Of a DNA stretch of 64,000 nucleotides, positions 1,793-21,807 are shown one piece after another. The position numbers were made by a program, and so were the translations under genes. A model generated the notes under the pieces. That model was not told the origin of the DNA. It ran no database searches and saw only the letters and a list, made by a program, of their open reading frames with translations. The DNA comes from a virus (taxonomy: Duplodnaviria; Caudoviricetes), in IMG/VR virus record IMGVR_UViG_3300042451_000960; one strand, written 5' to 3'. Every line of letters begins with the position of its first letter. Position 1 is the first letter of the stretch.

Positions 1793-4141
1793 TTATCTTC
1801 CGTACTTAAAGATACCCAATATTTGATTTAATGGTGCAAATGCTCCAGTCAATTTATAGGTATTTCCCCCATAAACGAAAACAATACCCTCATTTGGAAC
1901 AATTTTATCAAATCCACCTAAAGAATTTAAGCGGCTTAATTCAATTTTTAATTTATCAATTTGTTGTGGATTTCCAGAAGCTTTTATTTGCTTAATTGCA
2001 GTTCCCAATTCTTTTCTTAATTGTTTGGTTGCATCCGAAGGATTGGCGGTAAGTACAGATTCCATAAATGATAATACATCAGCACCAACACCTAAAAAGA
2101 TTTGTTCAAACTTCATTATGTTTTCTTTCATAATCTTTTGCTGGTCTTGCTTATCAGTTTTATCCGCCCATGCTTTTATCTTCTGGTCTTGTATTTGATT
2201 TATACGCATTGATTTATCACCAAAAGCCCATCTTTTAACCAACCCTATTTTTGAATTTATGTCTAATTTTTTTGCATTCTTTTCAACATAATTTTGCCAC
2301 CAAGCCTGATGGTAATCTGCTACTCCAGCTGAATCAGAAAGTTTAAATTCGTTTTGCAATTTATTAACCATTGATATATACTTTCCTTGTAATTTAGAAA
2401 GTTCTTGAGATTTTGGTAATGATTGTATTGGGGGTCCCTGAATTGTGTATGTATTTTGTACATGCTTATTAACTTGCTTAATCATACCAGCTAAGATAGA
2501 TGCCGCCTGTTGGTTCTCTCCGATTACTTCACCTTCTTTATTATATTCAAAAGTTCCGTGAAATACTAAAATGTTTTGTCCATATGGTATTACGTTTGAA
2601 TTCTTTGGATATATTACTTCCAAATTCATAAAACATGCACCATCTTTAAATATCTTCTTACGTTGTGGTTCAGTTAATCCTGCTATTGCTTTTGAAAGGT
2701 CATTCATAGCAAATGTATAAGCATCTGTAAGAGCACCTCTACCAGCAAATTGTTTTGCAACCTGCCCTATAGTCATTGCACCTTCACCTTTATTTTTTGT
2801 ATGAGATTTATTTCTTGCGGCAACCAATCTACCATTTACCCAACTAATTGCCAATGCCTGTCCATCAGTTTTTTCTCTTGCTAATTCCAAATCACCATTA
2901 AGAGCTTTAGTTACAATATTTTTAAGGTCACCAAATGTAAGATTCATCTGAATGTCAAATGGGTGATTCATATGTCCATATGCTCCACCTTCTAAAAGTA
3001 AACCTTCACTTAGTGGGGTTTCAATCTTTGATAATTTACTATAATAATTTGGGTCTTCGTATAAATGGTCTAATGCTATTTCTTTTGCAACATTTACATC
3101 GGTTGTATGCTCTCTTTCTACTGCATATCCTTTTATAAATTCGTTCTTTAAAGTCTGCTGACTAACTTTATGGTGTTTAGCTATATCCGATAGTGTCATA
3201 CCTTCGGCTTTTCCACCTGGTATTTTATCTTCTTTTACTTTAGTGTATTCCTCACTACCATCTTTATCCAATTTAGATTTTAATTTCTTAACATCTTTTG
3301 GATTTGGTGCTCCATTAATATATCCACCAGTCAAAGATAATCCAACACCAGCACCACCACCTAGTCCTTCTTTAATATCTTTCTTAGGAATTCTAAATGT
3401 TACGGCTTTCTTACCATTGATTGTTGGCATTCCCCATTCATCTTTTCCGATAGATTTAACAAAAACTTTTTTGTTTTTAAATTTACCCATTAAGATTTGG
3501 TCACCAATCTTAACATTTAATTTAATTTCTTCGTTAATATATTCTTTAAGAGATTTAAGTTTGAGAGTAATCATTTTGAATATTTGCTCATCAAACTTTG
3601 GATATGCTTTCATAAAACCTTTCTTTCTATCCGCTTCACTACCAGCACTTAACCAATAACGAACATCAGTTCCACTTATAGGATTTGATTGAGCAGGTGC
3701 TATATAAACGTACCCCCTATCCAAATATCCAGTATCTACTTTACCTTTATATGGTTTGAAGTATTTACCACTTAGACGTGAAGAATCTTTTTCACCAACT
3801 GCTGTTATAAATGCAGTAGTATCTGAATCAAATTTATTGAGTATTTCTTGTGGAGCGTATGGGTTTTTAATACTGACTATTTTGTTTGATGGAATACCAA
3901 ACATCTTTGTCATTATTACTTTCTTTTCCTTAAACCCGAATGGAGATTTCTTTGAATCGGTTACATCGGAAGTTCCTACATAAACATTATCCCTTCCAAA
4001 CTTCTTAACCAAATGGTCATACGTTGCGTAGTGACCCTTATGAAAAGGTTGAAAGCGGCCCGAATAGACAACTATTGTTTTGTCTATCTGAGCCGCTTCA
4101 CCTAATATGCTTTCTATTAAAAATTGTGCTAATCTGTTCAT
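1793..4141 (-). CDS. Multi-module protein: HIGH-motif nucleotidyltransferase (NadM/cytidylyltransferase-like) + DUF5661-like module + ligase-like KxDG domain
   Basis: GRFQPFHKGH near the N-terminus; GYAVEREHTTDVNVAKEIALDHLYEDPNYYSKL module; EGGAYGHMNHPFD...EKTDG domain. Confidence 0.75.
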   Translation of the reverse strand: MNRLAQFLIESILGEAAQIDKTIVVYSGRFQPFHKGHYATYDHLVKKFGRDNVYVGTSDVTDSKKSPFGFKEKKVIMTKMFGIPSNKIVSIKNPYAPQEILNKFDSDTTAFITAVGEKDSSRLSGKYFKPYKGKVDTGYLDRGYVYIAPAQSNPISGTDVRYWLSAGSEADRKKGFMKAYPKFDEQIFKMITLKLKSLKEYINEEIKLNVKIGDQILMGKFKNKKVFVKSIGKDEWGMPTINGKKAVTFRIPKKDIKEGLGGGAGVGLSLTGGYINGAPNPKDVKKLKSKLDKDGSEEYTKVKEDKIPGGKAEGMTLSDIAKHHKVSQQTLKNEFIKGYAVEREHTTDVNVAKEIALDHLYEDPNYYSKLSKIETPLSEGLLLEGGAYGHMNHPFDIQMNLTFGDLKNIVTKALNGDLELAREKTDGQALAISWVNGRLVAARNKSHTKNKGEGAMTIGQVAKQFAGRGALTDAYTFAMNDLSKAIAGLTEPQRKKIFKDGACFMNLEVIYPKNSNVIPYGQNILVFHGTFEYNKEGEVIGENQQAASILAGMIKQVNKHVQNTYTIQGPPIQSLPKSQELSKLQGKYISMVNKLQNEFKLSDSAGVADYHQAWWQNYVEKNAKKLDINSKIGLVKRWAFGDKSMRINQIQDQKIKAWADKTDKQDQQKIMKENIMKFEQIFLGVGADVLSFMESVLTANPSDATKQLRKELGTAIKQIKASGNPQQIDKLKIELSRLNSLGGFDKIVPNEGIVFVYGGNTYKLTGAFAPLNQILGIFKYGR

Positions 4142-4181: not shown

Positions 4182-4586
4182 TTAATTTCCATCAATTTTT
4201 ACTTCACCTTCAGATGGTGCTTGTGGAGCTAATTGTTGTTTTTGCATTTCTGCAATTTGTTTTCTTGAAAGAGTTCCAGGTTGATATTGGATAGTTCCTT
4301 CCATAAGGTTCAAACGTCCTCCAGGATACCTATCATCCAAATCATCCATCATTTTTTTGAATTCATCATTTTTTTGTTTGAATTCTTCTTCAATTCTTAT
4401 AACAGTTTCATCAAGTTTTCTCGATTCTTCCATTAAATCTTTTCTTCTTAAATAAAGATTTCCAAAATCAGTTACATAATTACCCAACATAGTGTTAAGG
4501 TTTTTAACTGAATTTAAAGTTTCTTCATCAAGTTTTACTGTTTCGATTTCAATTGTTGTTTTTGTAGGAATGTTATCTAATGACAT
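4182..4586 (-). CDS. Coiled-coil hypothetical protein, paralogue of 8381..8638
   Basis: C-terminal DDLDDRYPGGRLNLMEGTIQY matches NDLNQKYPNGEIDLNEGSVTF. Confidence 0.75.
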   Translation of the reverse strand: MSLDNIPTKTTIEIETVKLDEETLNSVKNLNTMLGNYVTDFGNLYLRRKDLMEESRKLDETVIRIEEEFKQKNDEFKKMMDDLDDRYPGGRLNLMEGTIQYQPGTLSRKQIAEMQKQQLAPQAPSEGEVKIDGN

Positions 4587-4620: not shown

Positions 4621-5010
4621 TTACTTTTTATTTTTTAAAATCTTAGATGTACTAAAGCCTGGTATTTTGTTGAAATATTCAATTTTTGGTACAAATTCTG
4701 CGCCTATTATTTGTTCATAACTATAATCGTTTCCAATTACCATAATATCAGGTCCCCATTCTTTTATTCTTTCGATTAATTCATCATCAGAATCAAAAGA
4801 GACCACAGAGTCAACACCATTGATAGCGGATAGAAACTCCATACGGTCAGCCAACGTATTGAACGGCCTTCCCACTCCTTTTTTTGAACGAACTCTTTCA
4901 TCCGTATCAATCCCCATTCGTAAGGTGCCCAATGATGCACCATGTAACATAAGTCTGATGTGGCCAATGTGCAAAACATCAAAAGTTCCATTTATCCAAA
5001 TTTTTTTCAT
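4621..5010 (-). CDS. Sugar-phosphate nucleotidyltransferase resembling the adenylyltransferase domain of HldE/RfaE (ADP-heptose synthesis) or TagD
   Basis: NGTFDVLHIGH...KGVGRPFN...R...VDSVVSF...PDIMVIGNDY...STSKI motifs. Confidence 0.85.
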   Translation of the reverse strand: MKKIWINGTFDVLHIGHIRLMLHGASLGTLRMGIDTDERVRSKKGVGRPFNTLADRMEFLSAINGVDSVVSFDSDDELIERIKEWGPDIMVIGNDYSYEQIIGAEFVPKIEYFNKIPGFSTSKILKNKK

Positions 5011-6167
5011 TATAAGAATTTCTCTAATTCTTTAATTACCATATCAGATGTAATTAATTTAGTACATTCAAATTGTCTTTCAGTACCTTTGTGGTCTGGG
5101 CACCAATTCCAATCACCAGCATCTAAACGTATTCTATTGAAACATCCTTCACATTTCCCTTCCGGAGAACCTATTCTAACACAATCTTTCATTTCTGCCC
5201 ATTTATAAGAAAAACCACTAATTAAGACTGTAGGTACATCTAATGCCCAACTTAACCAACTTAACCCACTACCAATTCCAATAAATGCTTTTGATTTTAA
5301 TAATTCATCCATAACTAATTCAATTGGACCATCGGGGTGTTTGATAACTCCATTTGGAATTTTATTTCCCATATAATCATCACCTTCTTTGGATATAATT
5401 CTAACAACATACCCTCTTTCGTTTAACCAATCAACAACTTCTTGCCAACCTGTTGGATTATTCCAAAACTTAGATTGTGCAGTACCAAACATACCAATAC
5501 AAACTTGTTTTAAATTATAATCTTTTGTTATGTATCTTTCTTTTATTTTAGGTTTAATTTCTTCATATTCTAATCCTAATATATCAGAACACATTTTTTG
5601 TAAAGTTGAACTTTTTGGGTCATTTGGATTTTTAAAAATGTTATGTGAATTATCTTCATTATAAAATAACCCAACACAATACATAGCGTATAAATTTTCA
5701 ACATTTGTACCCGGCTGTACGAATTCAATATGTGGATACCCATTTTCAAACATATCATTCATAAAAGTTGAAACAACAACTTTACATTTATGTTTTTTTC
5801 TGAATTCCTCTACATAAGCAAACCAAGCTAAAGAATCCCCAAGAGCTTTTGAATCTAATGCTATATAAACTCTTTTTTCTTCTGCATTAAAATAATGTGT
5901 ATGGAAATGATTATCGTTTTCATATATTTCTATACGCCAATCAATAAAATATTCTATACTACATCTAGACCACATATTGTTTTCTATTTCAGAAGAAAAT
6001 ACAATTTTATCAGAATTATTATCAATAAAATTAATTTTATATTTTGCTTTTTTTGGTCCTTTTATTTCAACAAAAGGTCCTTTAACAAAATGAATTAATA
6101 CTTTGTTTTTTATTTCAACAATATTATTGTGATTCTTTTTTAAATTATCGTAAATCATTAATCCCAA
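5010..6167 (-). CDS. Aah/TibC-like protein O-heptosyltransferase (autotransporter strand-loop-strand type, GT9-like fold)
   Basis: SKALGDSLAW catalytic-Asp loop, QSKFWNNPTGW, FIGIGSGLSWLSWA, LISGFS and the four-Cys iron site CEGC...WCPDH...FECTKLI. Confidence 0.85.
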   Translation of the reverse strand: MGLMIYDNLKKNHNNIVEIKNKVLIHFVKGPFVEIKGPKKAKYKINFIDNNSDKIVFSSEIENNMWSRCSIEYFIDWRIEIYENDNHFHTHYFNAEEKRVYIALDSKALGDSLAWFAYVEEFRKKHKCKVVVSTFMNDMFENGYPHIEFVQPGTNVENLYAMYCVGLFYNEDNSHNIFKNPNDPKSSTLQKMCSDILGLEYEEIKPKIKERYITKDYNLKQVCIGMFGTAQSKFWNNPTGWQEVVDWLNERGYVVRIISKEGDDYMGNKIPNGVIKHPDGPIELVMDELLKSKAFIGIGSGLSWLSWALDVPTVLISGFSYKWAEMKDCVRIGSPEGKCEGCFNRIRLDAGDWNWCPDHKGTERQFECTKLITSDMVIKELEKFL

Positions 6168-8338
6168 GTTTTTATAGTTTCATCCAATAAAGAATATCCT
6201 TCTGCTTGTTTGGAGTACATTTTATTAGTAGTATATCTAGGTTTTGGATGGTGATAAAATATATGATTAAACCAAAGGTCGCCCACATCCCATTCACAAT
6301 CTTTTATTCTATCCATCCACCAGCTTTTGTTTCTATTTGGAATTAAATAAGCGTGTGCAAGGTCTTGATTGTGTCCTGTTTTTGTAAACAAATCATCAAT
6401 TCTATATTTTTCTCGTGATGGGTTATCTGCCAATCCTATAAAATATACATCATCTCTTTCTGAAATAAAACAGGCTTTATGAACTATGTTTACAAATTCT
6501 TCTAACCCTGTGTAAATAAATGCATCGGCTTCAAATATTAAAGTATAATCGTAATTCGTATCATCTATTGTTTCTATAGCGTTTCTATGTGCTAAATAAC
6601 AACCATAATGTCTACCAGTTATCCAACCCAAACCAGCACCAGGATATAATTCACCAGGTTTATTATCTTTACTTAAATGCTCAGGTCTTCTACAATGTTC
6701 TGCCGGCGGTAACCCTTCATAAACCTTATTAACAATTGGTTGATAATCAATTCCATATTGACGTAATTGTTTTAAAGATTGAATAGATACTCTTTCACGC
6801 ATATCATCCGGTCTTGTCAACATATGTTTTATTTGAATACGTGGTTTTTTACGAACAAAAGATAAAAAATCTTTTTGAATCTGTCCATAAAAAAAGTGAT
6901 TAGCTGCATCTGTTACTCCACTAAAAACTCCAAAATCATCTCCACTAATAATTCCACCAGGTTTTACTTTATGATACCATCTATCTAACTCACCTAATAC
7001 AAAATCTCTACTATGCCCACCATCAATCATTATATAATCAATAGAATTATTTTGAAATAGTTTAGAAGCATTTTCTGATGTATCTTTTATAGTATTAAAC
7101 GCTTCATAATTATTTGAAATAACTGTGTTATCAACGAATTCATAAAATATATCTCCATTGAAAGACCCTACAATATCTATGTGTAATTCTTCATCTCCAG
7201 TTCCTTTAAATGTATCTATTGTTGTAAATGAAATATTCTTTTTAGAATCTCTAATTTTTTTTGCTAAATAATTTGTAGATTTTCCAAACCAAGAACCAAC
7301 CTCAACAAATGTAGAATTAAAAGGTGCAGTTTCTACCATTCTATCATATAAATTTTCATATGAAAACCAACCAGGTATTTCGTAAAATTCAGGTTTTAAT
7401 TTTTGAAGTAATAATTGTTTTGTTTTTTTAGTATCATCATCAATATATGTTACTAAATTATTGTTATCATATGTATCCAAAAAAGTATGCAATCTTCTAA
7501 ATAAGCATGGGAGCTTGTAAGAAAGAGCTTCCTTTACCGATAATGGATTTAACTCTAATATTGATGAAAAATAAAACAAATCAGATGCTGCATAAAATGT
7601 ATCAACATCATTTCGCTCTCCCCATATAACACAATTATCAGGTTTATGTTTCATTAGTGGCAACCAGTAATTTTCAAAGTTCATAGCTTGGTTTCCAACA
7701 AAATGAAATTTAATTTTATATTTTTCCAATTGCCTTGCTACTGAAAATATTTCTTTTTGATTTTTGCCCGGTGAAAATAATCCAACATTTAAAATATGCT
7801 TCCAAGTTGGGTCAAATCCTAATTTTTTTTGCGCTTCTTCTTTATCAAAATTATATTCTTCAATGGGATATTCCCAAAGTTGAGTTTCAACTCCTAAATT
7901 AGCATCATCAAATTTTTGTTTACTCCACTCAGATACCAAAACATATCTATCTGGATGATGTGTAATATCTAATGGATTTGTAAATGAACCATGTGTTGTT
8001 GCTACGATAAAATATTTTCTTTTGTTATCAAATATTTTATCTAATATTTCATTTGATAAATCAAATTGTGGGATTTCTTGAAAATGAATTATATCAGGTT
8101 TGTAGTCTTTAATTATATCAAGTATTTTAGATTTATCCTCACCTAAAGTATGTACAATAGCTAAAGATTTAATTCTATTTTTTTGAACTACAAACGCATC
8201 ACCACCACTATTGTTTATTTCAACAACTTCAATATTAAAATCATTTAAAAAATGCTTTACTTGCTTATATGTATATTGTGGTTGTCCGCCTGTTGAAAGG
8301 TGTGGACATACATAAAGTAACTTTTTTCTATTTTTCAT
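6158..8338 (-). CDS. Tri-domain protein: GT-B (GT4-like) glycosyltransferase + class I SAM methyltransferase + GT25-like glycosyltransferase
   Basis: NVGLFSPGKNQ...ELNPLSVKEALS (GT4); FVEVGSWFGKS...MIDGGHS...KPGGIISGDD (methyltransferase); HYGCYLAH...LIFEADA (GT25-like). Confidence 0.85.
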   Translation of the reverse strand: MKNRKKLLYVCPHLSTGGQPQYTYKQVKHFLNDFNIEVVEINNSGGDAFVVQKNRIKSLAIVHTLGEDKSKILDIIKDYKPDIIHFQEIPQFDLSNEILDKIFDNKRKYFIVATTHGSFTNPLDITHHPDRYVLVSEWSKQKFDDANLGVETQLWEYPIEEYNFDKEEAQKKLGFDPTWKHILNVGLFSPGKNQKEIFSVARQLEKYKIKFHFVGNQAMNFENYWLPLMKHKPDNCVIWGERNDVDTFYAASDLFYFSSILELNPLSVKEALSYKLPCLFRRLHTFLDTYDNNNLVTYIDDDTKKTKQLLLQKLKPEFYEIPGWFSYENLYDRMVETAPFNSTFVEVGSWFGKSTNYLAKKIRDSKKNISFTTIDTFKGTGDEELHIDIVGSFNGDIFYEFVDNTVISNNYEAFNTIKDTSENASKLFQNNSIDYIMIDGGHSRDFVLGELDRWYHKVKPGGIISGDDFGVFSGVTDAANHFFYGQIQKDFLSFVRKKPRIQIKHMLTRPDDMRERVSIQSLKQLRQYGIDYQPIVNKVYEGLPPAEHCRRPEHLSKDNKPGELYPGAGLGWITGRHYGCYLAHRNAIETIDDTNYDYTLIFEADAFIYTGLEEFVNIVHKACFISERDDVYFIGLADNPSREKYRIDDLFTKTGHNQDLAHAYLIPNRNKSWWMDRIKDCEWDVGDLWFNHIFYHHPKPRYTTNKMYSKQAEGYSLLDETIKTWD

Positions 8339-8348
8339 AACTTATTTA

Positions 8349-8380
8349 CAAATATACGATTTTTTTTTGGAATTTCCAAA
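8349..8380 (-). promoter_or_regulatory. Bacteroidota sigma-70-type promoter (-33 TTTG, -7 TATATTTG, 20-nt spacer) for the glycosylation operon
   Basis: Minus strand reads TTTG-gaaattccaaaaaaaaatcg-TATATTTG, 10 nt before the ATG at 8338; matches the TTTG-N19-21-TAnnTTTG consensus. Confidence 0.8.
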
Positions 8381-8638
8381 TTATTTTTGAAACGTTACAC
8401 TACCTTCATTCAGGTCTATTTCTCCATTTGGATATTTTTGATTCAAATCATTTAATAAAGTATCCAATTCAACGGAAACTTGCTTATATTCAGTTTCCGC
8501 TCCCAATATGATTTTTTTAAGCTCTGATAATTCTAAATACAACTCCCCTATATTATATATAAGTTCGGTTTTTTTGGTTGAAAGGTTTTTTAAGTTAATT
8601 AGTTGATATTCTTCTAATTTTTCAGTTTGTAACTCCAT
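8381..8638 (-). CDS. Small coiled-coil protein directly downstream of the tail fibre (possible fibre assembly factor)
   Basis: 85 aa; paralogue of 4182..4586. Confidence 0.75.
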   Translation of the reverse strand: MELQTEKLEEYQLINLKNLSTKKTELIYNIGELYLELSELKKIILGAETEYKQVSVELDTLLNDLNQKYPNGEIDLNEGSVTFQK

Positions 8639-8666: not shown

Positions 8667-11600
8667 TTATAAAGAACCACTTATAAATGCTTCTAAACTA
8701 GAAACTTTTTGTGAAAGTTCTTGTATTGCTTTTACCATAGGTGATATAAATTCATTGTATGTAACAGACCATCCAGCATTTTGTTGTTCTTCATCATACC
8801 ATTGTTGATTGTAAAGAGTACCATCAGAACCTGTTATAGAACCACTTGCTATAATTTCTTCAATAGGTCTTTTATATTCTCTTTCTAATGATTTGATAAA
8901 AGAAGAACCCGTATTCAATCCTTTAAAATCATCAGATGTTTTTCCAAGCGATTCTAAAGCAGTTAATACCTCTTGTGCAATAAATCCATATCTCGGTCTT
9001 TTTTTAGTACTTGATATGAAATTATATTTTACCGGTCTTAATTGTTTAATAAAATCCAAACCTAAATCGGAAGTGTAAATATTTTCTTTTAATTTTAAAT
9101 CAGATAAATTATTAAAATTATCGGCATATATTTCATCCCAAAAAACTCCAGTACCCGAGTTACTACCCATATCTTGAGTTCCATTATGTGGTCCACCAGC
9201 AGTTCCCCAGCGTGTATCGGCGGGGTGTACATCATCTATAAAATGCGCTTGATATATACTTCCGTATTTTGGTCTATACGCTAAATCCAATCTTCCATAG
9301 CCCGGACTTGCATCATTTCCAGAAATGAATATATTTCCTGCTAAATAAAGGCTTCCACGTGAATCTATTGCATAGTTCGAAAATGCACCACCAGCGGCAC
9401 CAAATGCCCAAAATTTAGATTGAGCTCCTTTTGCTTCAAAAATTATATCACTCGAACCAACTGATGTAGAAAGACGTGGAATTTGAACAAACGTTGATGT
9501 ATCATTTGCTATCTGAATACCTCCAGTTGTAACTTCTACTATGTTTGTTGGTATTATAATAGTAAAACTATTAGAATTATAACCAATTCCATTATCAGTT
9601 ACAGCAGTATTAATACCAGAAGTATGTCCATAAAATACTTCAGGTAACTCTGTACCAAAACTATCTACAGATACTGAACTTCCAGCTCTTGCGGATATTT
9701 GAATTGAATATCTAAATTTGTAATTTCCAGCAGAAGGGAAAGTAATAAATCTATCAGTAATTGCTGTAAATCCGCCGGTTGTGTATCCGGTATGAACGCC
9801 CGGTGTTGTATAATTACTATAAATCCAACTTGAACCATTCCACTCCCAATTATCAACACTGGTTGCGCTATAAGATGATACATTTTGTATCCAAACTCTA
9901 GCTATTTGACCCGTAGATTGGTTGACACCTTCTAAATACACATCAGCGCCAACAAACTTAGGACTTGCATATCCATTTTGACTTTCCCCAGGATACGTTC
10001 CAGGATTATTTGGATTATTTGCGTTTGCATAAATGGTTTGTGATGATAAATTATCAATTTGTAAAACACTAAATGTATAAAGATTAGTTAGTGCATAAGT
10101 ACCTGCAGCAGGTATTGAATAATTTGTTGCAGTTTCAAAATTAGAAACATCTGCATATGAATACGGCCCATATTGCGTAGCAAATGTTCCAAATGCCGAT
10201 ACATCAGCTGGTGTTGTCCAATCCGGATATGGTGAACCATTTCCATTTGGTATATCACTTACACTTACGTTTGAACCACCAACATTTGTCAAATAGTTTA
10301 CAGGAGATATGTTTAATTTTTTTTCACCCGCTAAATAAAATCCAAGTTCAGGTACAGTAGGGTTTAAAATAAGTTTTGAACCGGAATCTCGTAAGTTTCC
10401 ACCCAATGCTTGTGATTCAATAATCCAATTTCCAATTCTACCATCGGTAGCTGAAATAGAACCTGTAATAGAGAAATTATTTTCTTCAAATTTAATTTGG
10501 CTACCAATTGGATTACCAAATCTTACTCTACCACTACTATCCATATAAAATCCAGAACCACTATTAAACGTTGCTGCTGTAGCAGAACGTATAATTCCAC
10601 TACCCGTTCCACTTGTCTCAACACCCATAACTAAAGCTCTCGTAATAGTTGCGTCTTGAGCAAGTAAAATATCAGTTGCTACTGAACTAAATTGTGCACC
10701 AAAAGATTCCCAATATGTTGTATTAGTTGGAAGATTACCCGTTGTATTTTGTTTTGTTAAATAATATGCGTTATTATATTTTACAATATCTCTACGAACA
10801 CCTGCTGAAAAAATGTATGCAGTTGCTGCATTATATTCACCCCTATAAACCACACCAGGTCCAGTATCACCAGCTGCTCCCGCTGCTCCTTGTTTGGATT
10901 TTGAAAAAGATTGAACTCTACTTAAAGAAAACAAATCTCCATTTATTTTCTTACCGGATAATGTATAATTAATACTTGCCAAATCAGCTGTCATATTGGA
11001 ATGATTACCAACTACTGCATAGTTACCACCATCGGTTACAGATCCGGCTGTAATATTGGTAACAGATGAGGATACTGCCCATTTACCCGGTGAAGTACCA
11101 ACCCCATCATAATCCAATTGAGTTGCACCTTCATAAATGTATATATCAGTACCACTTCCAGCATAAGATGAAACAGTTCCATCATTTGCTGCTGGTAAAG
11201 TATGAGATTCATTTGTTACTATTACGGTTAATGCATCACTTCCTTCTTTAACCCTTGCTATTGAAACAGTATCAGTTATTGAATCCGCTGTTGCACTAAT
11301 TTCAACCAAAGTATTTGTACCAAAAGAACCCGTTCTTAAATAAACAATATTTCCGCTTGTTGTTGTACTTCCACCCGTTGCAGAATCAAATAATGTTACG
11401 GATGGTGTTGTAGTCCAATTCGTTGTTGCGGAAATATTTTGTTTGTTTGAAGTTAATTCAATATAATTTGGAGAAAGCGAACCACTCTTTGTTTCAACAA
11501 ATACTTGAGCAGATGCTTCTAATCTAAGTAACTTAGCTGCTATTGGTGCAATAGTCCAAGGACCGGAACCAGGATAACCTGTTCCTACATTTGTATTATT

Positions 11601-14600
11601 TGTAGATGTGTGGTTAGAGTTTGCTGTCCATGTATTTCCACCATATGTAACAATATCGTTTGTGTAGTAAACAGTTGCATCAGCCCAAGCTCCCATTAAA
11701 CGTCCTTCGTTTACGCCAGGGGATGATTGTTTTATTGAACCAACAATAGTCAAAGTACCACCATCCCAAAATAATCCCTTACCACTACCACCATATTCTT
11801 TAATTGAAAATCTTCCTGTTGTACCATTGACACCATCTTCGTACATTCCTAAAAATATACCAGGTCTATTAAATCCAATAATACCAGTTCCAGATGTACC
11901 AGATGCGCCGGAAGTTGATGGGTTATATGTTGTACCAGATGTGCCCGCAGTACCTACAGTACCATGCTGACCAATTGAAATATATGGGTCAGGTCTACCA
12001 CCTGCTATTACTATATTAGCAAATTTAGAAGTATTGTTATAAGTACCTACGTTAATTGAATTCTTAACATAAGATTCTTCAAATATAGCAATTTTAGCTG
12101 CTACAAAGAAATCTTGCTCACCCAAATACTGCCAATAATCGTTACTATTACCAACAGCAGGTGGGTATTGATGTCCAATTAATACATATCCACCCGGTGG
12201 TGTTGCTCCAACATAATAATCAGATGTTGTTGGGTTTACATAAGTTGTAGGCCCACTTCCACTTAGTGCTGCAAAATAGTGAGTTGTATTATTACTACCA
12301 GATGGGTCAGGCCAAATAATTGCATCTCTACGATAATTTACTGTTTCATACGAACCAATATAATCTTCATATTCACTATATTGACCTCTCATTACAATAC
12401 CAGGTCCAGTTTCACCTTCAAATTGAACAGAGAATGATTGGGTTTTAAATGCTACTCCCTTTCCATTTTCAAAATCAATTCTATAAACAACAGACCCAAT
12501 TGGATTTGAATCAGCGGTTGTCCAAGATACCAAATCACCAATTACAGCTCTACCAGCAACAATTGGTAAAACACTTTGAGATACCAACCCACCAGCTAAT
12601 CCTAAATAAGCTGATTTTGAATGTATAGTTACTTGATATTCTCCCAACGAACCAATTTCATTTGAAAATATATCTAAAGTTTGTGGACCAAATGGGTTAG
12701 CATGAGTTAATTGTGTTATTCCTTTTGTTGCATTTATAGTTGTTCCAGTTCCACCCAATTCAACTTCACCAGAAACTCTATAAATAATAGAAACGTTATC
12801 ATTAGTTAAAGTTGCGTTATATGATGGAACACCTTGTTGTAAACCTGTAAGTGTTAATGATGCTTGTGCTGTAATTGGTTGTGTTGAACTTATGTTACCA
12901 TCTCTAACTTGTACTACCCATAGTGCGGTTTCGCCTGGTGCAACAGAGTCACCAGAAGCTATTGTTGCTATGTTTGATGCTTGTATTGGTGTATATGCTA
13001 CATTATCTTTTAAAAATTGATAATAAGCTGAACCGGTAAAGTTGGTAACTGTTGCCGTTAATTCTATATCTCCCGCTGGTGATACTACAACACCATCACT
13101 ATCAAAACTTACAAAATTTGAAGTTGCTGATAATGTTACTCCTCTTGAATCCGCGCCATCTAATAGTTTAGTAAAGTTTTGAACTTTATTTATTACCGAT
13201 GAAGTATATTGATGACCAGGTCCTAGTGAATATGGATATGCAATTATATTATATGTTACACTACCTGTTCTTGGTCCTTGATTAAAATTGTGAAATCTTA
13301 TTAATGCCCTATCACCATTAAATGATGCTGTTAATGATGCCGTAAATACATTAGTTTGTTCAAAATTATCAACATAGAATGTACCAGGTTGATAAGACCA
13401 AGAATTATAAAGTAAATATTTATTTCCTTCTTTAATTCGTAATGTAGTATTAGATGATGCATAATTTGATACAACTCCGTTTTCATCAGCATTTAAAACA
13501 ACGGATTCGGGTGTTAATGATACTTCTAATTGTGGTGTACCATCTAATATTTTTGTAAATTGTTGAACTACACTTCCCGTATAAATTGATGATGTATAAA
13601 ATGGTTGTATTTCAAGATTATATGTAACACTACCACTTAAATTGTTCATACCACTAGCTGCGCCTATAAACAAAGAACCTGTGTAATTTGCATTAAAGCC
13701 CGGTGGTATTGGGTTTATAATTTTACCAGGTATAATATTAGAACCAGTTATACTGCCTGAAACAATAAAGAAAGTTCCTTCACCTTTACTTGCTGTAAAA
13801 TTAAGATACCTAGAGCCTTGTTTTAATCTTATTTGTGTTACTGATGATGAATAACTATTTACAAAACCTTCTGCTGTTGCATTAAGAGATACCAATGCAG
13901 GAGTTACTTCAAAAATAATTGTTTCATCTCCCGGCTTACCTTCTGGTATAATAGTGAATGTTTTATCTAAACTTATAGATGCAGAAGTCCAAGGTTCAGT
14001 ATATGTAAATGTAATTGTTAAATTTTTACTTTGCTTATTAGATTGCCCTATATATGAATTTAGTGGTAATGAATCAATTACATTTTTATTTTCATCTCTT
14101 GCTATTACGGAAATAGTTTTATCTGCACTTTGTGTTGTATAATAAAACCAATATTCAGGAACATAATCTTTATTAATTGACATCGAAGGGAATACCCTAA
14201 ACGATGCTGTTATTGCGTTGGTTGTTCCTCTTTCAAAAAATGAAGCCGTAGCAAATGCAAATGATGGTCTAAAATTTATTTCATTTCTTGGATTTATAGC
14301 AAATGTATCAGCATTAAATACTATACTTGGTGTATCCAAACCATCTTGCAAATCTTCTAAAATAATAGATGCTAAAACCGAACCAGATACTGCATATGCC
14401 GGTGAAGCTGCTGCAGATGATGATGGCATTAAATAAATAATTCTCCTAAAATCTATTGAATCTCTATCAAATACTGCATTATAGTTAATTTCTTTAGAAC
14501 CCAACGAACCAGTTATTATTCCTCTGATATATTTGCTTGATGATGCCAATGATAAAGGAATAAATTTTTCAGGTTCAGTTGCTGGATTAAGAGATGCTGA

Positions 14601-16781
14601 TAAAACGTGTAGTTGTATATTTCCCCAACCATCTTGAGCACCACTATAAAGATTAATTTCATTAATACCATCAATTCTTACCGCTTGAATTTCTAAAGAT
14701 GCAGTACTACTATTTCTAATTTGAGTTCCTCTATAAGGTCTAATGAAATGATTAACTCCACCCTTACCATCTAAAACTCTTGTAATAATAATTGAATCAG
14801 TTACACCTTCACATTCACCAGTAAATTCTATATATTGAACTAATTTATCTGCTCTGGAACCTGTAAAGTTTTCTACGGTTAATCTTACTGTATCCAAATT
14901 CCTATCCAATAATAAACCTGGATATTGTGAACCAACTCCAACATAATCGGTATTGAACAATTCGTTATTTGCAAAATCAAAAGAACGTGATGTAAAATTT
15001 ACCGAACCCGTTAGATAGTTTTTAATTACATCAATATAAACTGTTGTTGGTGGTAACGGGTTGCCATTACCAGAACCAGAATCAAATTGAAAATAAAGCG
15101 ATGATGGTACTAATTGTAAATCTTTATTAATTACATTTAAATTACCGCCATCAAATGTTTTTGTTTCTTCTACCAAAACAGGGATATAATTGTTATTTAT
15201 ATCGTAAAATTGAAACCTAAAATCAAATGTTTCTCTAGGTAAAGTCCTTGGTATTGGTTGTATGAATGTTATTTCATCAGGACTAAAAGATGTTTCTTGA
15301 GATGCTCTTAAACTAACATCGGATATATACCAATCACTACCCTCAGTTTCAAAATATAATCTAGTATTATTAATATCTTCTGCTTTAAAGTTAGCTACTA
15401 CATTTGATTTTTGTAACACACTACTATCAGAAGTTATCGTTACGATTGGCTGCTCAATTTGAATTGTACTAGTTACGTTATTGTATGTACTTAGTCTAGA
15501 ACCGCTCAAATATGCTTTTATATAATGGTTAGCACTTCCTACCGCATCTTTTCTAGTATTAAAAGTAAGAGTATATTCAGTATTTTCTCTTACATCTAAA
15601 GATTTTGTTGTTGCAAACCTTTCTCCAGAAATTAAACTGTTTAACTTAACAGAGTTATATAAGAAATTTTGATTAAATGATGTTACTAAATTATTTGAAG
15701 AAGTTATCCAATAATTTTTATAATTAAATTGGTCAAAACTACCGTAATATTCTTCATTTTTTGAATTTGATTCTAAATCTTTAAGTAATTCATTTGATTC
15801 TAATTGTATTTCTTGTACAAATTGATAATCCGATAAATCTGATTGTGACCTTCTATATATTTTTACTCTTGCACAATCTCCTACAAATGTTGTTAAATCG
15901 GTTATATTAATTTTAGCGAATGAACCAGTTAATGCTGTTTTTAAATTATCATTACCTTCAATGTAATTAAATGTTACAGAATAAGGTTCTGCTATTAATG
16001 TTTTTACAATACCATTTTCATTATATGGAGTTGATACTGTTAAATCTCTATCACTAACAACATCATCCGCTAATAAACTTACACCCTTATTTGTGAGTGT
16101 GATATAATTGTTTGTAACAGAACCTGTCCAAAATGAATCATTTAGGGTTGTTAAAAGATATGATGTTGGTAATGTATAACCAGACACACTTTCACCTTCC
16201 GCTGGGATTTGTGGAATACCATTTATAAAACCCGTTTGGGTGACCTGCCTAACGATGTTTGAAAATATTGGTTTAACTATTTCATTTATTGTTACTTCCG
16301 GTCTTCTATAAAATCTTACCTTATCTTCATTAGAAATTAATTTATTAACTTTAAAAGTTTTTTCCCATTTTACATTATATACACTTTTCCACTCATCAGG
16401 AACATCCCTTACTACACCACCCTCATCTAAATAAGTTTTTAACTCCCCTAAAACAGTTATTTTTGCTTCACCAATAGGAGTATCTTCGTAAACATAAACG
16501 GCTACAAGTTTTGATACACCTTCATAATATTCGGGCACACCATTGCCAGGCTCATAATAAATCGGGTCACCATTTACATCTAATATTTGAATCTTTATTT
16601 CAGTTGATTCTTTAAGGTGTTGAGACCCTTCTATTAGGAATCCATTTTTACCACCAGTAAACGTATCCTTAAACTCAGTTATTCTAAAATAAGTTGAATT
16701 TGGATTCGTATCAACTAAAAAAGTTTGAAAAGATGTTAATGGTTGAGTTAAAACTTCTGCGTATTTTTTTATTCTCGCCAT
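8667..16781 (-). CDS. Large tail fibre / receptor-binding protein with C-terminal peptidase S74 intramolecular chaperone
   Basis: 2704 aa; repeated ~100-aa beta modules and CBM5/12-like segments; C-terminal SDLKLKENI...LDFIKQLRPVKYNF...GFIAQEV...VKAIQEL. Confidence 0.85.
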   Translation of the reverse strand: MARIKKYAEVLTQPLTSFQTFLVDTNPNSTYFRITEFKDTFTGGKNGFLIEGSQHLKESTEIKIQILDVNGDPIYYEPGNGVPEYYEGVSKLVAVYVYEDTPIGEAKITVLGELKTYLDEGGVVRDVPDEWKSVYNVKWEKTFKVNKLISNEDKVRFYRRPEVTINEIVKPIFSNIVRQVTQTGFINGIPQIPAEGESVSGYTLPTSYLLTTLNDSFWTGSVTNNYITLTNKGVSLLADDVVSDRDLTVSTPYNENGIVKTLIAEPYSVTFNYIEGNDNLKTALTGSFAKINITDLTTFVGDCARVKIYRRSQSDLSDYQFVQEIQLESNELLKDLESNSKNEEYYGSFDQFNYKNYWITSSNNLVTSFNQNFLYNSVKLNSLISGERFATTKSLDVRENTEYTLTFNTRKDAVGSANHYIKAYLSGSRLSTYNNVTSTIQIEQPIVTITSDSSVLQKSNVVANFKAEDINNTRLYFETEGSDWYISDVSLRASQETSFSPDEITFIQPIPRTLPRETFDFRFQFYDINNNYIPVLVEETKTFDGGNLNVINKDLQLVPSSLYFQFDSGSGNGNPLPPTTVYIDVIKNYLTGSVNFTSRSFDFANNELFNTDYVGVGSQYPGLLLDRNLDTVRLTVENFTGSRADKLVQYIEFTGECEGVTDSIIITRVLDGKGGVNHFIRPYRGTQIRNSSTASLEIQAVRIDGINEINLYSGAQDGWGNIQLHVLSASLNPATEPEKFIPLSLASSSKYIRGIITGSLGSKEINYNAVFDRDSIDFRRIIYLMPSSSAAASPAYAVSGSVLASIILEDLQDGLDTPSIVFNADTFAINPRNEINFRPSFAFATASFFERGTTNAITASFRVFPSMSINKDYVPEYWFYYTTQSADKTISVIARDENKNVIDSLPLNSYIGQSNKQSKNLTITFTYTEPWTSASISLDKTFTIIPEGKPGDETIIFEVTPALVSLNATAEGFVNSYSSSVTQIRLKQGSRYLNFTASKGEGTFFIVSGSITGSNIIPGKIINPIPPGFNANYTGSLFIGAASGMNNLSGSVTYNLEIQPFYTSSIYTGSVVQQFTKILDGTPQLEVSLTPESVVLNADENGVVSNYASSNTTLRIKEGNKYLLYNSWSYQPGTFYVDNFEQTNVFTASLTASFNGDRALIRFHNFNQGPRTGSVTYNIIAYPYSLGPGHQYTSSVINKVQNFTKLLDGADSRGVTLSATSNFVSFDSDGVVVSPAGDIELTATVTNFTGSAYYQFLKDNVAYTPIQASNIATIASGDSVAPGETALWVVQVRDGNISSTQPITAQASLTLTGLQQGVPSYNATLTNDNVSIIYRVSGEVELGGTGTTINATKGITQLTHANPFGPQTLDIFSNEIGSLGEYQVTIHSKSAYLGLAGGLVSQSVLPIVAGRAVIGDLVSWTTADSNPIGSVVYRIDFENGKGVAFKTQSFSVQFEGETGPGIVMRGQYSEYEDYIGSYETVNYRRDAIIWPDPSGSNNTTHYFAALSGSGPTTYVNPTTSDYYVGATPPGGYVLIGHQYPPAVGNSNDYWQYLGEQDFFVAAKIAIFEESYVKNSINVGTYNNTSKFANIVIAGGRPDPYISIGQHGTVGTAGTSGTTYNPSTSGASGTSGTGIIGFNRPGIFLGMYEDGVNGTTGRFSIKEYGGSGKGLFWDGGTLTIVGSIKQSSPGVNEGRLMGAWADATVYYTNDIVTYGGNTWTANSNHTSTNNTNVGTGYPGSGPWTIAPIAAKLLRLEASAQVFVETKSGSLSPNYIELTSNKQNISATTNWTTTPSVTLFDSATGGSTTTSGNIVYLRTGSFGTNTLVEISATADSITDTVSIARVKEGSDALTVIVTNESHTLPAANDGTVSSYAGSGTDIYIYEGATQLDYDGVGTSPGKWAVSSSVTNITAGSVTDGGNYAVVGNHSNMTADLASINYTLSGKKINGDLFSLSRVQSFSKSKQGAAGAAGDTGPGVVYRGEYNAATAYIFSAGVRRDIVKYNNAYYLTKQNTTGNLPTNTTYWESFGAQFSSVATDILLAQDATITRALVMGVETSGTGSGIIRSATAATFNSGSGFYMDSSGRVRFGNPIGSQIKFEENNFSITGSISATDGRIGNWIIESQALGGNLRDSGSKLILNPTVPELGFYLAGEKKLNISPVNYLTNVGGSNVSVSDIPNGNGSPYPDWTTPADVSAFGTFATQYGPYSYADVSNFETATNYSIPAAGTYALTNLYTFSVLQIDNLSSQTIYANANNPNNPGTYPGESQNGYASPKFVGADVYLEGVNQSTGQIARVWIQNVSSYSATSVDNWEWNGSSWIYSNYTTPGVHTGYTTGGFTAITDRFITFPSAGNYKFRYSIQISARAGSSVSVDSFGTELPEVFYGHTSGINTAVTDNGIGYNSNSFTIIIPTNIVEVTTGGIQIANDTSTFVQIPRLSTSVGSSDIIFEAKGAQSKFWAFGAAGGAFSNYAIDSRGSLYLAGNIFISGNDASPGYGRLDLAYRPKYGSIYQAHFIDDVHPADTRWGTAGGPHNGTQDMGSNSGTGVFWDEIYADNFNNLSDLKLKENIYTSDLGLDFIKQLRPVKYNFISSTKKRPRYGFIAQEVLTALESLGKTSDDFKGLNTGSSFIKSLEREYKRPIEEIIASGSITGSDGTLYNQQWYDEEQQNAGWSVTYNEFISPMVKAIQELSQKVSSLEAFISGSL

Positions 16782-16872: not shown

Positions 16873-17049
16873 ATGAAAAAATACGCAATGATTCAAATTG
16901 ATGCCGAAATTCATCAAGTACTGAAGGATTTTTGTAAAGAGAAAGGTTACAAAATTAATGGATTGGTGGAATCTCTTATAAAAGAAAAGGTGGAATCTGT
17001 TAAAAAGACCCCACCTAAAAATATATTACCTGTTAATTCTAAAAGTTAA
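16873..17049 (+). CDS. Small ribbon-helix-helix-like DNA-binding protein (58 aa), the only credible plus-strand gene
   Basis: Below the ORF-track cutoff. Hand translation MKKYAMIQIDAEIHQVLKDFCKEKGYKINGLVESLIKEKVESVKKTPPKNILPVNSKS shows the beta-strand/helix/G/helix RHH pattern. Confidence 0.75.
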   Translation: MKKYAMIQIDAEIHQVLKDFCKEKGYKINGLVESLIKEKVESVKKTPPKNILPVNSKS

Positions 17050-21146: not shown

Positions 21147-21178
21147 CAAATATACAACATTTTTGGGATATATCCAAA
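21147..21178 (-). promoter_or_regulatory. Bacteroidota-type promoter (TTTG-N20-TATATTTG) for the primase-sbcCD operon
   Basis: Minus strand reads TTTG-gatatatcccaaaaatgttg-TATATTTG. Confidence 0.8.
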
Positions 21179-21399: not shown

Positions 21400-21807
21400 T
21401 TAATATATATCCTTACGAAAGAATTTTCCCATAAGGTTTTCATTTATTGATTGTGGGTCTGACAGTACATCTAATTTGAACTGCCACCAAACTTCCCAAT
21501 ATGTAAGTGATTTTTTACTAAAACAGAATTGAATGATTTCTCTTTCAAAATTCCCACCTCTACCTTCTTTTACTTCAGATTTAATCCATTCATTTGATGA
21601 GTAGTATTTTTCCCAATCAGAAGCCTTACGAACTACTCTCTTACGAACCTTTCCTTTTAGCGGTTTTAAACGGCGGGTTGATGTAAGTGATTTTTTACCA
21701 ATATAGAATTTACCAGTTGGTTTGTGTATAATTTTATAGACAAAACCAACCGCACCCTCTGGGGTGTTTTCTTCTGTAACCAAATTTCCATTAAATTTCC
21801 AAGACAT
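21400..21807 (-). CDS. GIY-YIG family nuclease-like protein
   Basis: GFVYKIIHKPTGKFYIGKK...YYSSN...F.REII...E. Confidence 0.75.
   Translation of the reverse strand: MSWKFNGNLVTEENTPEGAVGFVYKIIHKPTGKFYIGKKSLTSTRRLKPLKGKVRKRVVRKASDWEKYYSSNEWIKSEVKEGRGGNFEREIIQFCFSKKSLTYWEVWWQFKLDVLSDPQSINENLMGKFFRKDIY

What the first reader, a model, noticed from the sequence alone, without database searches (positions are those of the whole stretch)
4621..8338. Phage-encoded protein O-glycosylation (heptosylation) module next to the tail fibre
Seen: one operon holding a GT4/methyltransferase/GT25-like fusion, an Aah/TibC-like enzyme with the LGD catalytic loop and the four-Cys iron site, and an HldE-like nucleotidyltransferase. 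Known: Aah/TibC transfer heptose from ADP-heptose onto Ser residues of bacterial autotransporter adhesins, and HldE makes ADP-heptose. Inference: the phage activates a sugar, attaches it to protein, then extends and methylates the glycan. The target could be the virion (shielding, adhesion, host range) or the host surface. I know of no characterised TibC-type system acting on phage virions.
Basis: partly seen in the sequence, partly recalled or inferred. Interest (0 to 1): 0.8.

Follow-up and report, generated by a model that had tools for sequence, protein, structure and literature searches.

The report
Phage TibC-type protein glycosylation cassette
A large lake phage, probably of Bacteroidota, carries next to its giant tail-fibre gene a true relative of the E. 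coli adhesin-heptosylating enzyme TibC plus sugar-activating, sugar-extending and methylating enzymes, so it most likely sugar-coats one of its own virion proteins, although no glycan has been shown.

Summary
Window 4621-8338 (minus strand) holds three tightly coupled genes. The first is a 726-aa fusion of a GT4 domain, a SAM methyltransferase and a GT25-like GT-A domain. The second is a 382-aa TibC/Aah-family enzyme: TIGR04414 gives 292 bits against a cut-off of 200, and the model matches TibC at TM 0.84. The third is a 129-aa HldC-like nucleotidyltransferase. They lie 330 bases downstream of a 2,704-aa tail fibre.

- **Conserved TibC features:** the catalytic Asp, both phosphate ligands, the heptose-binding Trp, the four iron-finger Cys and the thumb are invariant in 81 relatives.
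- **One feature lost:** the adenine-reading Arg is always Val.
- **Phylogeny:** the enzyme lies in a mostly phage-borne branch, apart from the autotransporter-linked enzymes.
- **Support for a heptose donor:** 23 of 80 relatives, and a strain 99.5% identical in DNA, add a heptose-7-phosphate-kinase-like gene.
- **Transcription:** the cassette has its own conserved Bacteroidota-type promoter.

The best reading is glycosylation of a virion protein, probably the fibre, by heptose that is then extended and methylated. Donor, acceptor and glycan are all inferred. I found no paper on it, but this scan has noted the same kind of module in at least 136 other genomes.

The parts
8667..16781 (-). 2,704-aa tail fibre (P0007), the candidate acceptor. 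It is 20% Ser+Thr and ends in a self-cleaving Peptidase_S74 chaperone domain.
   Evidence: Peptidase_S74, E 7e-11, residues 2560-2613. Gene order is conserved in relatives: the fibre gene was detected in 58 of 80 loci, many of which are cut before reaching it.
11928..11972 (-). Short proline-free collagen-like run inside the fibre, five Gly-X-Y triplets rich in Thr/Ser. It is the only such run in the window.
   Evidence: Relatives' fibres carry runs of 5-11 triplets. The fibres of two cassette-less relatives have none.
8381..8638 (-). 85-aa coiled-coil protein (P0005), a paralogue of P0004. Function unknown.
   Evidence: 33% identity, E 3e-15. Detected in 73 of 80 relatives.
8349..8380 (-). 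Bacteroidota-type promoter (TTTGG, 19-20 nt, GTAT[A/C]TTTG) ending 10 nt before the P0001 ATG.
   Evidence: Both boxes are kept and the spacer varies in 64 of 68 relatives. A promoter of the same form precedes the primase gene at 21147-21178.
7379..8338 (-). P0001 residues 1-320: GT4 (GT-B) glycosyltransferase domain with an E-x7-E motif at residues 262-270.
   Evidence: Glycos_transf_1, 48.7 bits, cut-off 26.4.
6884..7336 (-). P0001 residues 335-485: class I SAM-dependent methyltransferase domain (Methyltransf_24, TylF-like).
   Evidence: 58.8 bits, cut-off 26.3.
6161..6841 (-). P0001 residues 500-726: GT-A domain of GT25 type, with an invariant F-E-A-D-A motif at residue 602.
   Evidence: Language-model look-alikes are viral clusters in which 79% of members carry PF01755.
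5010..6158 (-). P0002: 382-aa TibC/Aah-type glycosyltransferase with an N-terminal beta-barrel, a GT-B core, a thumb and a four-Cys iron finger.
4621..5010 (-). P0003: 129-aa HldC-like (HldE domain II-like) nucleotidyltransferase with an HxGH motif. Its start overlaps the P0002 stop by one base.
   Evidence: (phrog_7878, E 1e-32).
4182..4586 (-). 134-aa coiled-coil protein (P0004), a paralogue of P0005, closing the cassette. Function unknown.
   Evidence: Detected in 80 of 80 relatives.

Best explanation
This is a phage-encoded protein O-glycosylation cassette of a T4-like jumbo phage from lake water, whose host is probably a Bacteroidota bacterium.

Proposed mechanism (inferred):
1. In the infected cell, the HldC-like enzyme P0003 converts heptose-1-phosphate and an NTP into NDP-heptose, topping up or replacing the host supply. 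Some relatives also supply the preceding kinase step.
2. The TibC-type enzyme P0002 transfers this first sugar to Ser/Thr hydroxyls of an elongated phage structural protein before or during assembly. The most likely acceptor is the adjacent 2,704-aa tail fibre.
3. The three-domain protein P0001 adds further sugars through its GT4 and GT25-like domains and O-methylates the glycan.

The result would be a glycan coat on the fibre, which could affect stability, protease resistance or receptor recognition.

Shown here: the family and fold of each enzyme, conservation of the catalytic and sugar-phosphate residues, gene order, and the promoter.

Inferred: the donor, the acceptor, the order of the steps and the biological role.
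For: - P0002 passes the curated TIGR04414 cut-off.
- Its model (pLDDT 91) superposes on TibC at TM 0.84 over 377 columns. The LPS heptosyltransferases WaaC and WaaF reach only TM 0.41-0.52.
- The equivalents of TibC D110, T226, K230, W305, F368 and the four Cys are invariant in 81 clade members. Their roles come from PMC4358343.
- P0001 and P0002, and P0002 and P0003, overlap stop on start.
- The nearest 50%-cluster relatives are single chains joining GT4, the TibC-like domain and a methyltransferase.
- 23 of 80 relatives carry, right after the nucleotidyltransferase, a PfkB kinase whose best family is rfaE_dom_I (E 1e-25). So does a strain 99.5% identical in DNA.
- In all 80 loci found through P0002, the fusion gene and the 134-aa gene P0004 accompany it, and the order fibre, cassette, terminase is kept wherever the locus reaches far enough. 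All 31 close relatives found through another gene also carry P0002.
- Of nine more distant relatives looked up, seven lie on phage-like contigs and two contigs were too short to tell. Those seven sit beside GT4 or methyltransferase genes and beside sheath, Laminin_G_3, capsid, terminase or giant proteins.
- One further relative lies next to a collagen-repeat protein.
- 47 of 121 Flavobacteriales genomes have a true HldC, so a host heptose pathway is plausible.
Against: - No glycan, donor or acceptor has been observed.
- The adenine-contacting Arg-286 of TibC, whose Ala mutant loses activity, is Val in all 81 members.
- P0003 scores half its family cut-off, and 42 of 80 relatives lack it.
- No gmhA, gmhB or epimerase was found in the window or in three partial relatives.
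- The cassette has a host-type promoter like that of the primase gene, not the ATATTTAT box that precedes the fibre and other structural genes.
- The [ST]-G-S motif I tested as a possible acceptor site is just as enriched in the fibres of two related phages that lack the cassette at this locus.
- TibC's known acceptors are monomeric beta-helices threaded through a dodecamer, not trimeric fibres.
Confidence: 0.5

Rival explanations
1. Same chemistry, different acceptor. The cassette glycosylates a host surface protein, such as a beta-helical adhesin or a phage receptor, early in infection, to block superinfection or to change the cell surface.
For: - All characterised family members act on bacterial surface adhesins (PMC4358343; Aah lies next to AIDA-I).
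- The cassette is driven by a host-type promoter of the same form as the one before the primase gene, which suggests expression before the late genes.
Against: - The cassette sits between the fibre gene and the packaging genes in every relative.
- More distant relatives also sit among structural genes of unrelated phages.
- No autotransporter or adhesin gene lies beside it.
- An enzyme needed for late proteins can reasonably be made early.
Confidence: 0.15
2. Same acceptor logic, but the donor is not ADP-heptose. The transferase would use another NDP-heptose or a different NDP-sugar, and P0003 would activate that sugar.
For: - The Arg that reads adenine N1 in TibC is Val in all 81 members, and varies (R, V, T, L, I) across the wider branch.
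- P0003 is below the rfaE_dom_II cut-off and also matches glycerol-3-phosphate cytidylyltransferase at 51.5 bits.
- Viral and other HldE-like enzymes can make CDP- and UDP-heptose (Tang et al. 2024, as summarised in PMC11461863).
Against: - The heptose-O4 ligand Trp and the beta-phosphate ligands Thr and Lys are invariant.
- rfaE_dom_II beats every other nucleotidyltransferase family by about 39 bits.
- The kinase in relatives matches the heptose-7-phosphate kinase best.
- By my own reading of the P0003 sequence, not a tool result, there is no Arg five residues before the STT-like motif. That Arg is the feature reported to widen NTP use.
Confidence: 0.15
3. The cassette acts on a non-protein acceptor, namely host LPS/LOS core or capsule. 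GT9, GT25, GT4 and HldE are all classic LPS-core families.
For: - All four domain families occur in LPS core synthesis.
- The best Swiss-Prot fold matches of the GT-A domain include LgtB, LgtE, LpsA and Lex-1.
- The cassette has a host-type promoter.
Against: - P0002 matches TIGR04414 at 292 bits but LPS heptosyltransferase I at only 23 bits.
- It keeps the N-terminal beta-barrel, the thumb and the iron finger, which in TibC serve oligomerisation and binding of the protein substrate.
- Its fold match to WaaC and WaaF is far weaker.
Confidence: 0.08
4. The glycosyltransferases modify phage DNA, giving glycosylated hypermodified bases as in T-even phages.
For: - The phage is T4-like: it has a T4-type portal and prohead protease.
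- The cassette shares its promoter type with replication genes.
Against: - The only thymidylate-synthase-family gene in the window is a canonical ThyA, at 283 bits against a cut-off of 108.
- No hydroxymethylase was seen.
- None of the domains resembles a known DNA glucosyltransferase.
- P0002 is TibC-like throughout.
Confidence: 0.02

Closest known systems
TibC (ETEC) and Aah (AIDA-I-associated): bacterial autotransporter heptosyltransferases (BAHT; TIGR04414; PDB 4RAP/4RB4)
   Same: - Same length and full architecture: N-terminal beta-barrel, GT-B core, beta-hairpin thumb and four-Cys iron finger.
- Same catalytic Asp in the LGD loop, beta-phosphate Thr/Lys and heptose-binding Trp.
- The score is above the curated family cut-off, and the model matches at TM 0.84.
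   Different: - 31-36% identity.
- It lies in a separate, well-supported and mostly phage-borne branch.
- The adenine-reading Arg is Val.
- The thumb is three residues shorter, with a Tyr-Met tip instead of Phe-Val.
- No autotransporter gene is adjacent; the neighbour is a tail fibre.
- It is coupled to further transferases and a methyltransferase. As far as I know the enterobacterial enzymes add single heptoses; I did not check this.
[quoted passage not shown] PDB 5X9Q is the best-matching solved structure; I believe it is Burkholderia HldC, but its deposited name is 'putative cytidylyltransferase'.
   Same: - It is the best-scoring family.
- The HxGH motif is present.
- It is stand-alone and of similar size.
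- In relatives it is followed by an HldE-domain-I-like kinase.
   Different: - It scores 90 bits against a cut-off of 181.5.
- At 129 aa it is shorter than bacterial HldC, which is about 165-185 aa in Flavobacteriales.
- It is absent from about half of the relatives.
Virus-encoded virion glycosylation: mycobacteriophage capsid and tail-tube glycans (Freeman et al. 2023, cited in PMC12619734) and chlorovirus PBCV-1 capsid glycosyltransferase A64R (PDB 2P6W)
   Same: - The virus brings its own glycosyltransferases, presumably to decorate structural proteins.
- The GT-A domain of P0001 matches the PBCV-1 enzyme by fold at E 2e-5.
   Different: - The initiating enzyme family is different (GT9/BAHT type).
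- The host phylum is different.
- The sugar is probably heptose.
- Nothing has been shown experimentally here.
Microcystis phage Mel-JY01 1,226-aa protein, annotated 'methyltransferase FkbM' (PP395634.1)
   Same: - Its C-terminal part is 49% identical to P0002.
- It lies after a structural gene and before a cytidylyltransferase-like gene and the terminase, as here.
   Different: - It is a single fused chain in a cultured cyanophage.
- It is not annotated or studied as a glycosyltransferase, and I found no paper naming the phage.
GT25 family (LgtB/LgtE LOS galactosyltransferases; COLGALT1 collagen galactosyltransferase; mimivirus R655)
   Same: A GT-A fold with a conserved acidic motif; these are the best fold matches.
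   Different: - The Pfam score is below the cut-off, and identity is 13-16%.
- The domain is fused behind a GT4 and a methyltransferase.

Membership tests
BAHT (TibC/Aah, TIGR04414) | Score above the curated equivalog cut-off over the full-length profile | tested here: met
   291.7 bits against a cut-off of 200; profile positions 14-373 of 374.
BAHT (TibC/Aah, TIGR04414) | Overall architecture: N-terminal beta-barrel plus GT-B core plus iron-finger insertion | tested here: met
   Model pLDDT 91. TM 0.83-0.84 and rmsd 2.9 A to 4RAP over 377 columns. The next-best folds, WaaC and WaaF, reach TM 0.41-0.52.
BAHT (TibC/Aah, TIGR04414) | Catalytic base Asp-110 in the LGD loop | tested here: met
   D111 here; Asp in 81 of 81 clade members and 140 of 140 representatives.
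BAHT (TibC/Aah, TIGR04414) | Sugar-nucleotide ligands Thr-226, Lys-230 (beta-phosphate) and Trp-305 (heptose O4) | tested here: met
   T229, K233 and W304 here; invariant in 81 of 81.
BAHT (TibC/Aah, TIGR04414) | Arg-286 contacting adenine N1 (the basis of ADP specificity) | tested here: not met
   Val-285 here and in all 81 clade members. Aah and the Paraburkholderia enzyme keep Arg.
BAHT (TibC/Aah, TIGR04414) | Four-Cys iron finger (Cys-339, 342, 358, 370) and Phe-368 | tested here: met
   C339, C342, C356, C368 and F366 here; invariant in 81 of 81. Iron binding itself cannot be tested with these tools.
BAHT (TibC/Aah, TIGR04414) | Beta-hairpin thumb with two hydrophobic tip residues that builds the dodecamer | tested here: inconclusive
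   The thumb is present but three residues shorter. The tip is Tyr-Met (81 of 81) instead of Phe-Val. The oligomeric state is not testable here.
BAHT (TibC/Aah, TIGR04414) | Gene adjacent to its autotransporter (AIDA/TibA-type) substrate | tested here: not met
   No autotransporter is in the window. The neighbours are a tail fibre and two small coiled-coil proteins. Aah and the Paraburkholderia gene do sit before AIDA-type genes.
BAHT (TibC/Aah, TIGR04414) | Transfers heptose from ADP-heptose to Ser of a protein | not testable with these tools
   This needs an enzyme assay or glycoproteomics.
HldC / HldE domain II (TIGR02199) | Score above the curated cut-off | tested here: not met
   90.4 bits against 181.5. 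It is still the best family, 39 bits ahead of glycerol-3-phosphate cytidylyltransferase.
HldC / HldE domain II (TIGR02199) | Genomic coupling to the heptose-7-phosphate kinase (HldE domain I / HldA) | tested here: inconclusive
   Absent in this window. Present directly downstream in 23 of 80 relatives and in strain L086.
GT4 (Glycos_transf_1) | Pfam score above the gathering cut-off, and an E-x7-E motif | tested here: met
   48.7 bits against 26.4; E262-x7-E270.
GT25 (Glyco_transf_25) | Pfam score above the gathering cut-off | tested here: not met
   15.5 bits against 24.
GT25 (Glyco_transf_25) | GT-A fold closest to GT25 members | tested here: met
   Foldseek top hits are COLGALT1, LgtB/LgtE, HI_0765 and mimivirus R655, at E 1e-6 to 4e-8 and TM 0.55-0.61.
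Methyltransf_24 (class I SAM methyltransferase) | Pfam score above the gathering cut-off | tested here: met
   58.8 bits against 26.3, covering the full profile 1-105.

The most novel reading that the evidence does not exclude
A widespread clade of freshwater Bacteroidota jumbo phages uses a ring-forming, iron-finger TibC-type enzyme to prime its own giant tail fibre with heptose. The donor's nucleotide is read differently from ADP in TibC (Arg to Val). The phage then builds a methyl-capped oligosaccharide on that heptose. The sugar-supply genes (nucleotidyltransferase, with or without kinase) are swapped between near-identical strains. This would be a new virion glycosylation system that tunes fibre stability or host range.
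Probability: 0.4. Interest if true: 0.8.

Novelty: new variant of a known kind. Interest (0 to 1): 0.6.

Why it matters
TibC/Aah enzymes are known only as virulence-associated modifiers of enterobacterial adhesins. This family has thousands of metagenomic members, many of them on phage contigs beside structural genes. That points to an unstudied and probably common form of virion protein glycosylation in aquatic phages.

If confirmed, it would do three things:
- Add a second well-defined case of phage virion glycosylation, after the mycobacteriophages.
- Give a role to the 'LPS-like' sugar genes often seen in aquatic phage genomes.
- Provide a compact enzyme set for site-specific protein heptosylation.

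Tried and rejected
1. **[ST]-G-S as an acceptor motif.** It is strongly enriched in the fibre: 27 observed against 5.6 +/- 2.3 in shuffles, and 428 against 128 expected across 41 relatives. Its Ser/Thr positions are more conserved than other Ser/Thr (p = 0.002). However, the fibres of two related phages with the same backbone and no cassette at this locus are just as enriched (24 vs 5.6 and 28 vs 5.9). The motif is therefore not evidence for glycosylation.
2. **Long collagen-like repeats as the acceptor,** as proposed in earlier notes for other phages. This window has only one five-triplet run. The idea is not excluded but is weakly represented here.
3. **Rest of the heptose pathway.** No SIS, HAD or epimerase family was found among 31 further window proteins. 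No gmhA was found in three partial relatives. The whole genome, and the long contigs of the same phage, are not held.
5. **Sigma-70 promoter and terminator scan.** It did no better than shuffles.
6. **Defence-system libraries.** No PADLOC match for any of the six proteins.
7. **Literature.** I found no paper on a phage TibC-type enzyme. The 'moraphage' paper (PMC12619734) mentions core glycosyltransferases but not heptose, and I could not tie it to this lineage.
8. **DNA glycosylation.** Rejected as unlikely.

Full report
**What is there**

All long genes of the window lie on the minus strand. The order of transcription is:
- a fused SbcD-SbcC nuclease (17039-20185);
- a terminator-like hairpin (16988-17016);
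- a 2,704-aa protein (8667-16781);
- an 85-aa protein (8381-8638);
- P0001 (6158-8338), P0002 (5010-6158) and P0003 (4621-5010);
- a 134-aa protein (4182-4586);
- a 782-aa cytidylyltransferase-like/DUF5661 protein;
- a 227-aa protein and the large terminase.

On longer contigs of the same phage, a T4-type portal and prohead protease follow. Contigs carrying the identical P0002 reach 278 kb. The DNA recurs in lake-water metagenomes of many studies. This is therefore an uncultured T4-like jumbo phage from fresh water.

**The fibre**

The 2,704-aa protein is 20% Ser+Thr and ends in a Peptidase_S74 intramolecular chaperone domain. That is the signature of a tail fibre or spike.

**The three enzymes**

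P0001 has three domains.
- The GT4 domain is above the Pfam cut-off and carries an E-x7-E motif.
- The Methyltransf_24 domain is above the cut-off.
- The C-terminal 230 residues score below the cut-off for GT25. They fold as a GT-A domain whose best matches are GT25 proteins and a chlorovirus capsid glycosyltransferase.

P0002 is a TibC/Aah-family enzyme.
- It passes the curated TIGR04414 cut-off, 292 against 200 bits.
- It aligns with TibC over residues 38-379 at E 5e-53.
- Its model (pLDDT 91) matches TibC at TM 0.84. The LPS heptosyltransferases reach only 0.41-0.52.
- Its true start is the ATG that overlaps the P0001 stop (TAATG).

P0003 overlaps the P0002 stop by one base.
- Its best match is HldE domain II: 90 bits, below the cut-off of 181.5, but 39 bits above the next nucleotidyltransferase family.
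- It matches a phage family of the same length (phrog_7878, E 1e-32).

**Residue-level test against TibC**

The TibC paper (PMC4358343) names these residues:
- Asp-110 as the catalytic base;
- Thr-226 and Lys-230 on the beta-phosphate;
- Trp-305 on heptose O4;
- Arg-286 on adenine N1;
- Pro-300 as the D,D/L,D selector;
- Cys-339, 342, 358 and 370 as the iron finger;
- Phe-265, Val-266 and Phe-368 in the ring contacts.

I aligned the window protein with 80 close relatives, 140 representatives, Aah and a Paraburkholderia enzyme. In the 81 clade members:
- Asp, Thr, Lys, Trp, Phe-368 and all four Cys are invariant.
- The thumb tip is Tyr-Met.
- The selector position is Gly.
- Arg-286 is Val in every member, whereas the two autotransporter-linked enzymes keep Arg.

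The sugar and phosphate side of the donor pocket is thus kept, but the adenine contact is not.

**Position in the family**

A tree places the clade (support 1.0) among fusion proteins and phage contigs. The autotransporter-linked enzymes form a separate clade of 28 tips with support 0.98.
- The nearest 50%-cluster representatives (50-54% identity) are chains that join GT4, the TibC-like domain and Methyltransf_24 or FkbM domains. This ties the domains of P0001 functionally to P0002.
- Of nine more distant relatives looked up, seven lie on phage-like contigs and two contigs were too short to tell. Those seven sit next to GT4 or methyltransferase genes and among sheath, Laminin_G_3, capsid, terminase or giant proteins.
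- A contig binned with a Flavobacteriales genome has a collagen-repeat protein followed by two GT4 genes and a TibC-like fusion.
- In the phage sequence collection only four records hold a homologue: Microcystis phage Mel-JY01, where it is the tail of a 1,226-aa 'FkbM methyltransferase', and three megaphages.

**Variation of the cassette**

- In all 80 viral loci found through P0002, P0001 and the 134-aa gene P0004 accompany it. The order fibre, cassette, cytidylyltransferase-like gene, terminase is kept wherever the locus reaches far enough.
- Only 38 of these loci have the nucleotidyltransferase. Of those, 23 also have a 248-aa PfkB kinase whose best family is the heptose-7-phosphate kinase domain of HldE, at E 1e-25 against 4e-8 for ribokinase.
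- One strain (L086) is 99.5% identical in DNA from the fibre through nearly all of the nucleotidyltransferase gene. Its nucleotidyltransferase protein matches P0003 exactly for the first 45 residues and is only about 70% identical after that, and the kinase follows. The sugar-supply genes are therefore exchanged by recombination.
- Loci found through the 782-aa protein show that all 31 close relatives carry the cassette. Seven more distant ones lack it. Two of these go straight from the fibre to the next gene. The other five have different genes upstream; in the one I scanned (L238) these include two NDP-sugar epimerase/dehydratase genes. The site thus looks like a hot spot for sugar genes.

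**Promoter and host**

The sequence at 8349-8380 reads TTTGG, 19-20 nt, GTATATTTG and ends 10 nt before the ATG.
- The loose pattern is not above chance in the window: 7 matches against 4.1 expected.
- However, three near-identical intergenic copies exist, including one before the primase gene.
- Both boxes are kept, while the spacer varies, in 64 of 68 relatives.

That this pattern matches the Bacteroidota primary-sigma consensus comes from my own knowledge and from the earlier notes. I did not check it against a paper.

The fibre and several structural genes are instead preceded by ATATTTAT, with 16 of 20 copies on the coding strand. By my own comparison with the ORF table, 11 of those copies lie 17-43 nt before an ATG.

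No terminator-like site separates the fibre from the cassette. The cassette can therefore be read both from its own promoter and by read-through.

The host is thus probably a Bacteroidota bacterium. In a sample of 121 Flavobacteriales genomes, 47 have an HldC above the curated cut-off. A Flavobacteriales and a Chitinophaga genome also have strong GmhA matches. A host heptose pathway is therefore plausible, contrary to two earlier notes.

**Acceptor**

The acceptor remains inferred from position alone.
- The [ST]-G-S motif is enriched and conserved. It is equally enriched in the fibres of two cassette-less relatives, so I dropped it as evidence.
- The fibre has one five-triplet Gly-Thr/Ser-rich collagen-like run, and relatives have runs of 5-11 triplets. 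The two cassette-less fibres have none. With only two controls, this is a lead and not a result.

**Verdict**

The enzyme is a genuine relative of TibC/Aah. It fails two family features, the adenine-reading Arg and the adjacent autotransporter, so it is best called a phage-borne variant of the family.

I found no publication on such a system. The source annotation pipeline already names these proteins 'autotransporter strand-loop-strand O-heptosyltransferase'. This scan has noted the same kind of module in at least 136 other genomes.

Noticed in passing
window 8381-8638 and 4182-4586 (minus strand): Two paralogous small coiled-coil proteins (33% identity, E 3e-15, with a shared C-terminal motif) bracket the glycosylation cassette in nearly all relatives. 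They belong to virus-only families with no known function. They could be fibre-assembly helpers, or a trace of how the cassette was inserted.
   Followed up: partly
L086:11149-12280 compared with window 4621-5010: A strain 99.5% identical in DNA from the fibre to the end of the nucleotidyltransferase gene has a protein identical to P0003 for the first 45 residues and diverged after that. It then carries an extra 250-aa heptose-kinase-like gene. This suggests a recombination breakpoint inside or just after this small gene.
   Followed up: partly
L238:3683-6442; also L243, L240, L234 and L241, upstream of the homologue of window 1793-4141: In more distant relatives, the place of the TibC cassette is taken by a different set of genes. 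In L238 these include two NAD-dependent sugar epimerase/dehydratases. The other four loci were read only from ORF ends, not scanned. The site before the cytidylyltransferase-like gene seems to be a hot spot for sugar genes.
   Followed up: partly
window 1793-4141 (minus strand): A 782-aa protein with an N-terminal NMN-adenylyltransferase-like/cytidylyltransferase-like domain and a DUF5661 domain. It is conserved before the terminase genes here and in Microcystis phage Mel-JY01. Its role is unknown.
   Followed up: no
window 17039-20185 (minus strand): A single 1,048-aa chain matches SbcD-like (residues 5-335) and SbcC-like (residues 311-1047) phage families, so it is a fused Mre11-Rad50-type nuclease.
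   Followed up: no
window 21400-21807 (minus strand): A SegE-type GIY-YIG homing-endonuclease-like gene (E 6e-26) sits between the structural block and the primase.
   Followed up: no
window, about 11600-11700 (fibre residues 1698-1729): A weak match to carbohydrate-binding module family 5/12 inside the fibre (E 1.4e-4, below cut-off). It may be a glycan-binding part of the fibre.
   Followed up: no
G004 (Flavobacteriales MAG): C73:6728-7111 and C55:9437-9841: Besides a true HldC, this genome bin holds short (136-151 aa) HldC-like frames scoring 89-113 bits, in the range of the phage enzyme. They may be phage contigs binned with the host.
   Followed up: no
window 60836-60867 and 21147-21178 (minus strand): Two further copies of the TTTGG...GTATATTTG promoter-like element, near-identical in form to the one before the cassette. 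The one at 21147-21178 lies before the primase gene.
   Followed up: partly
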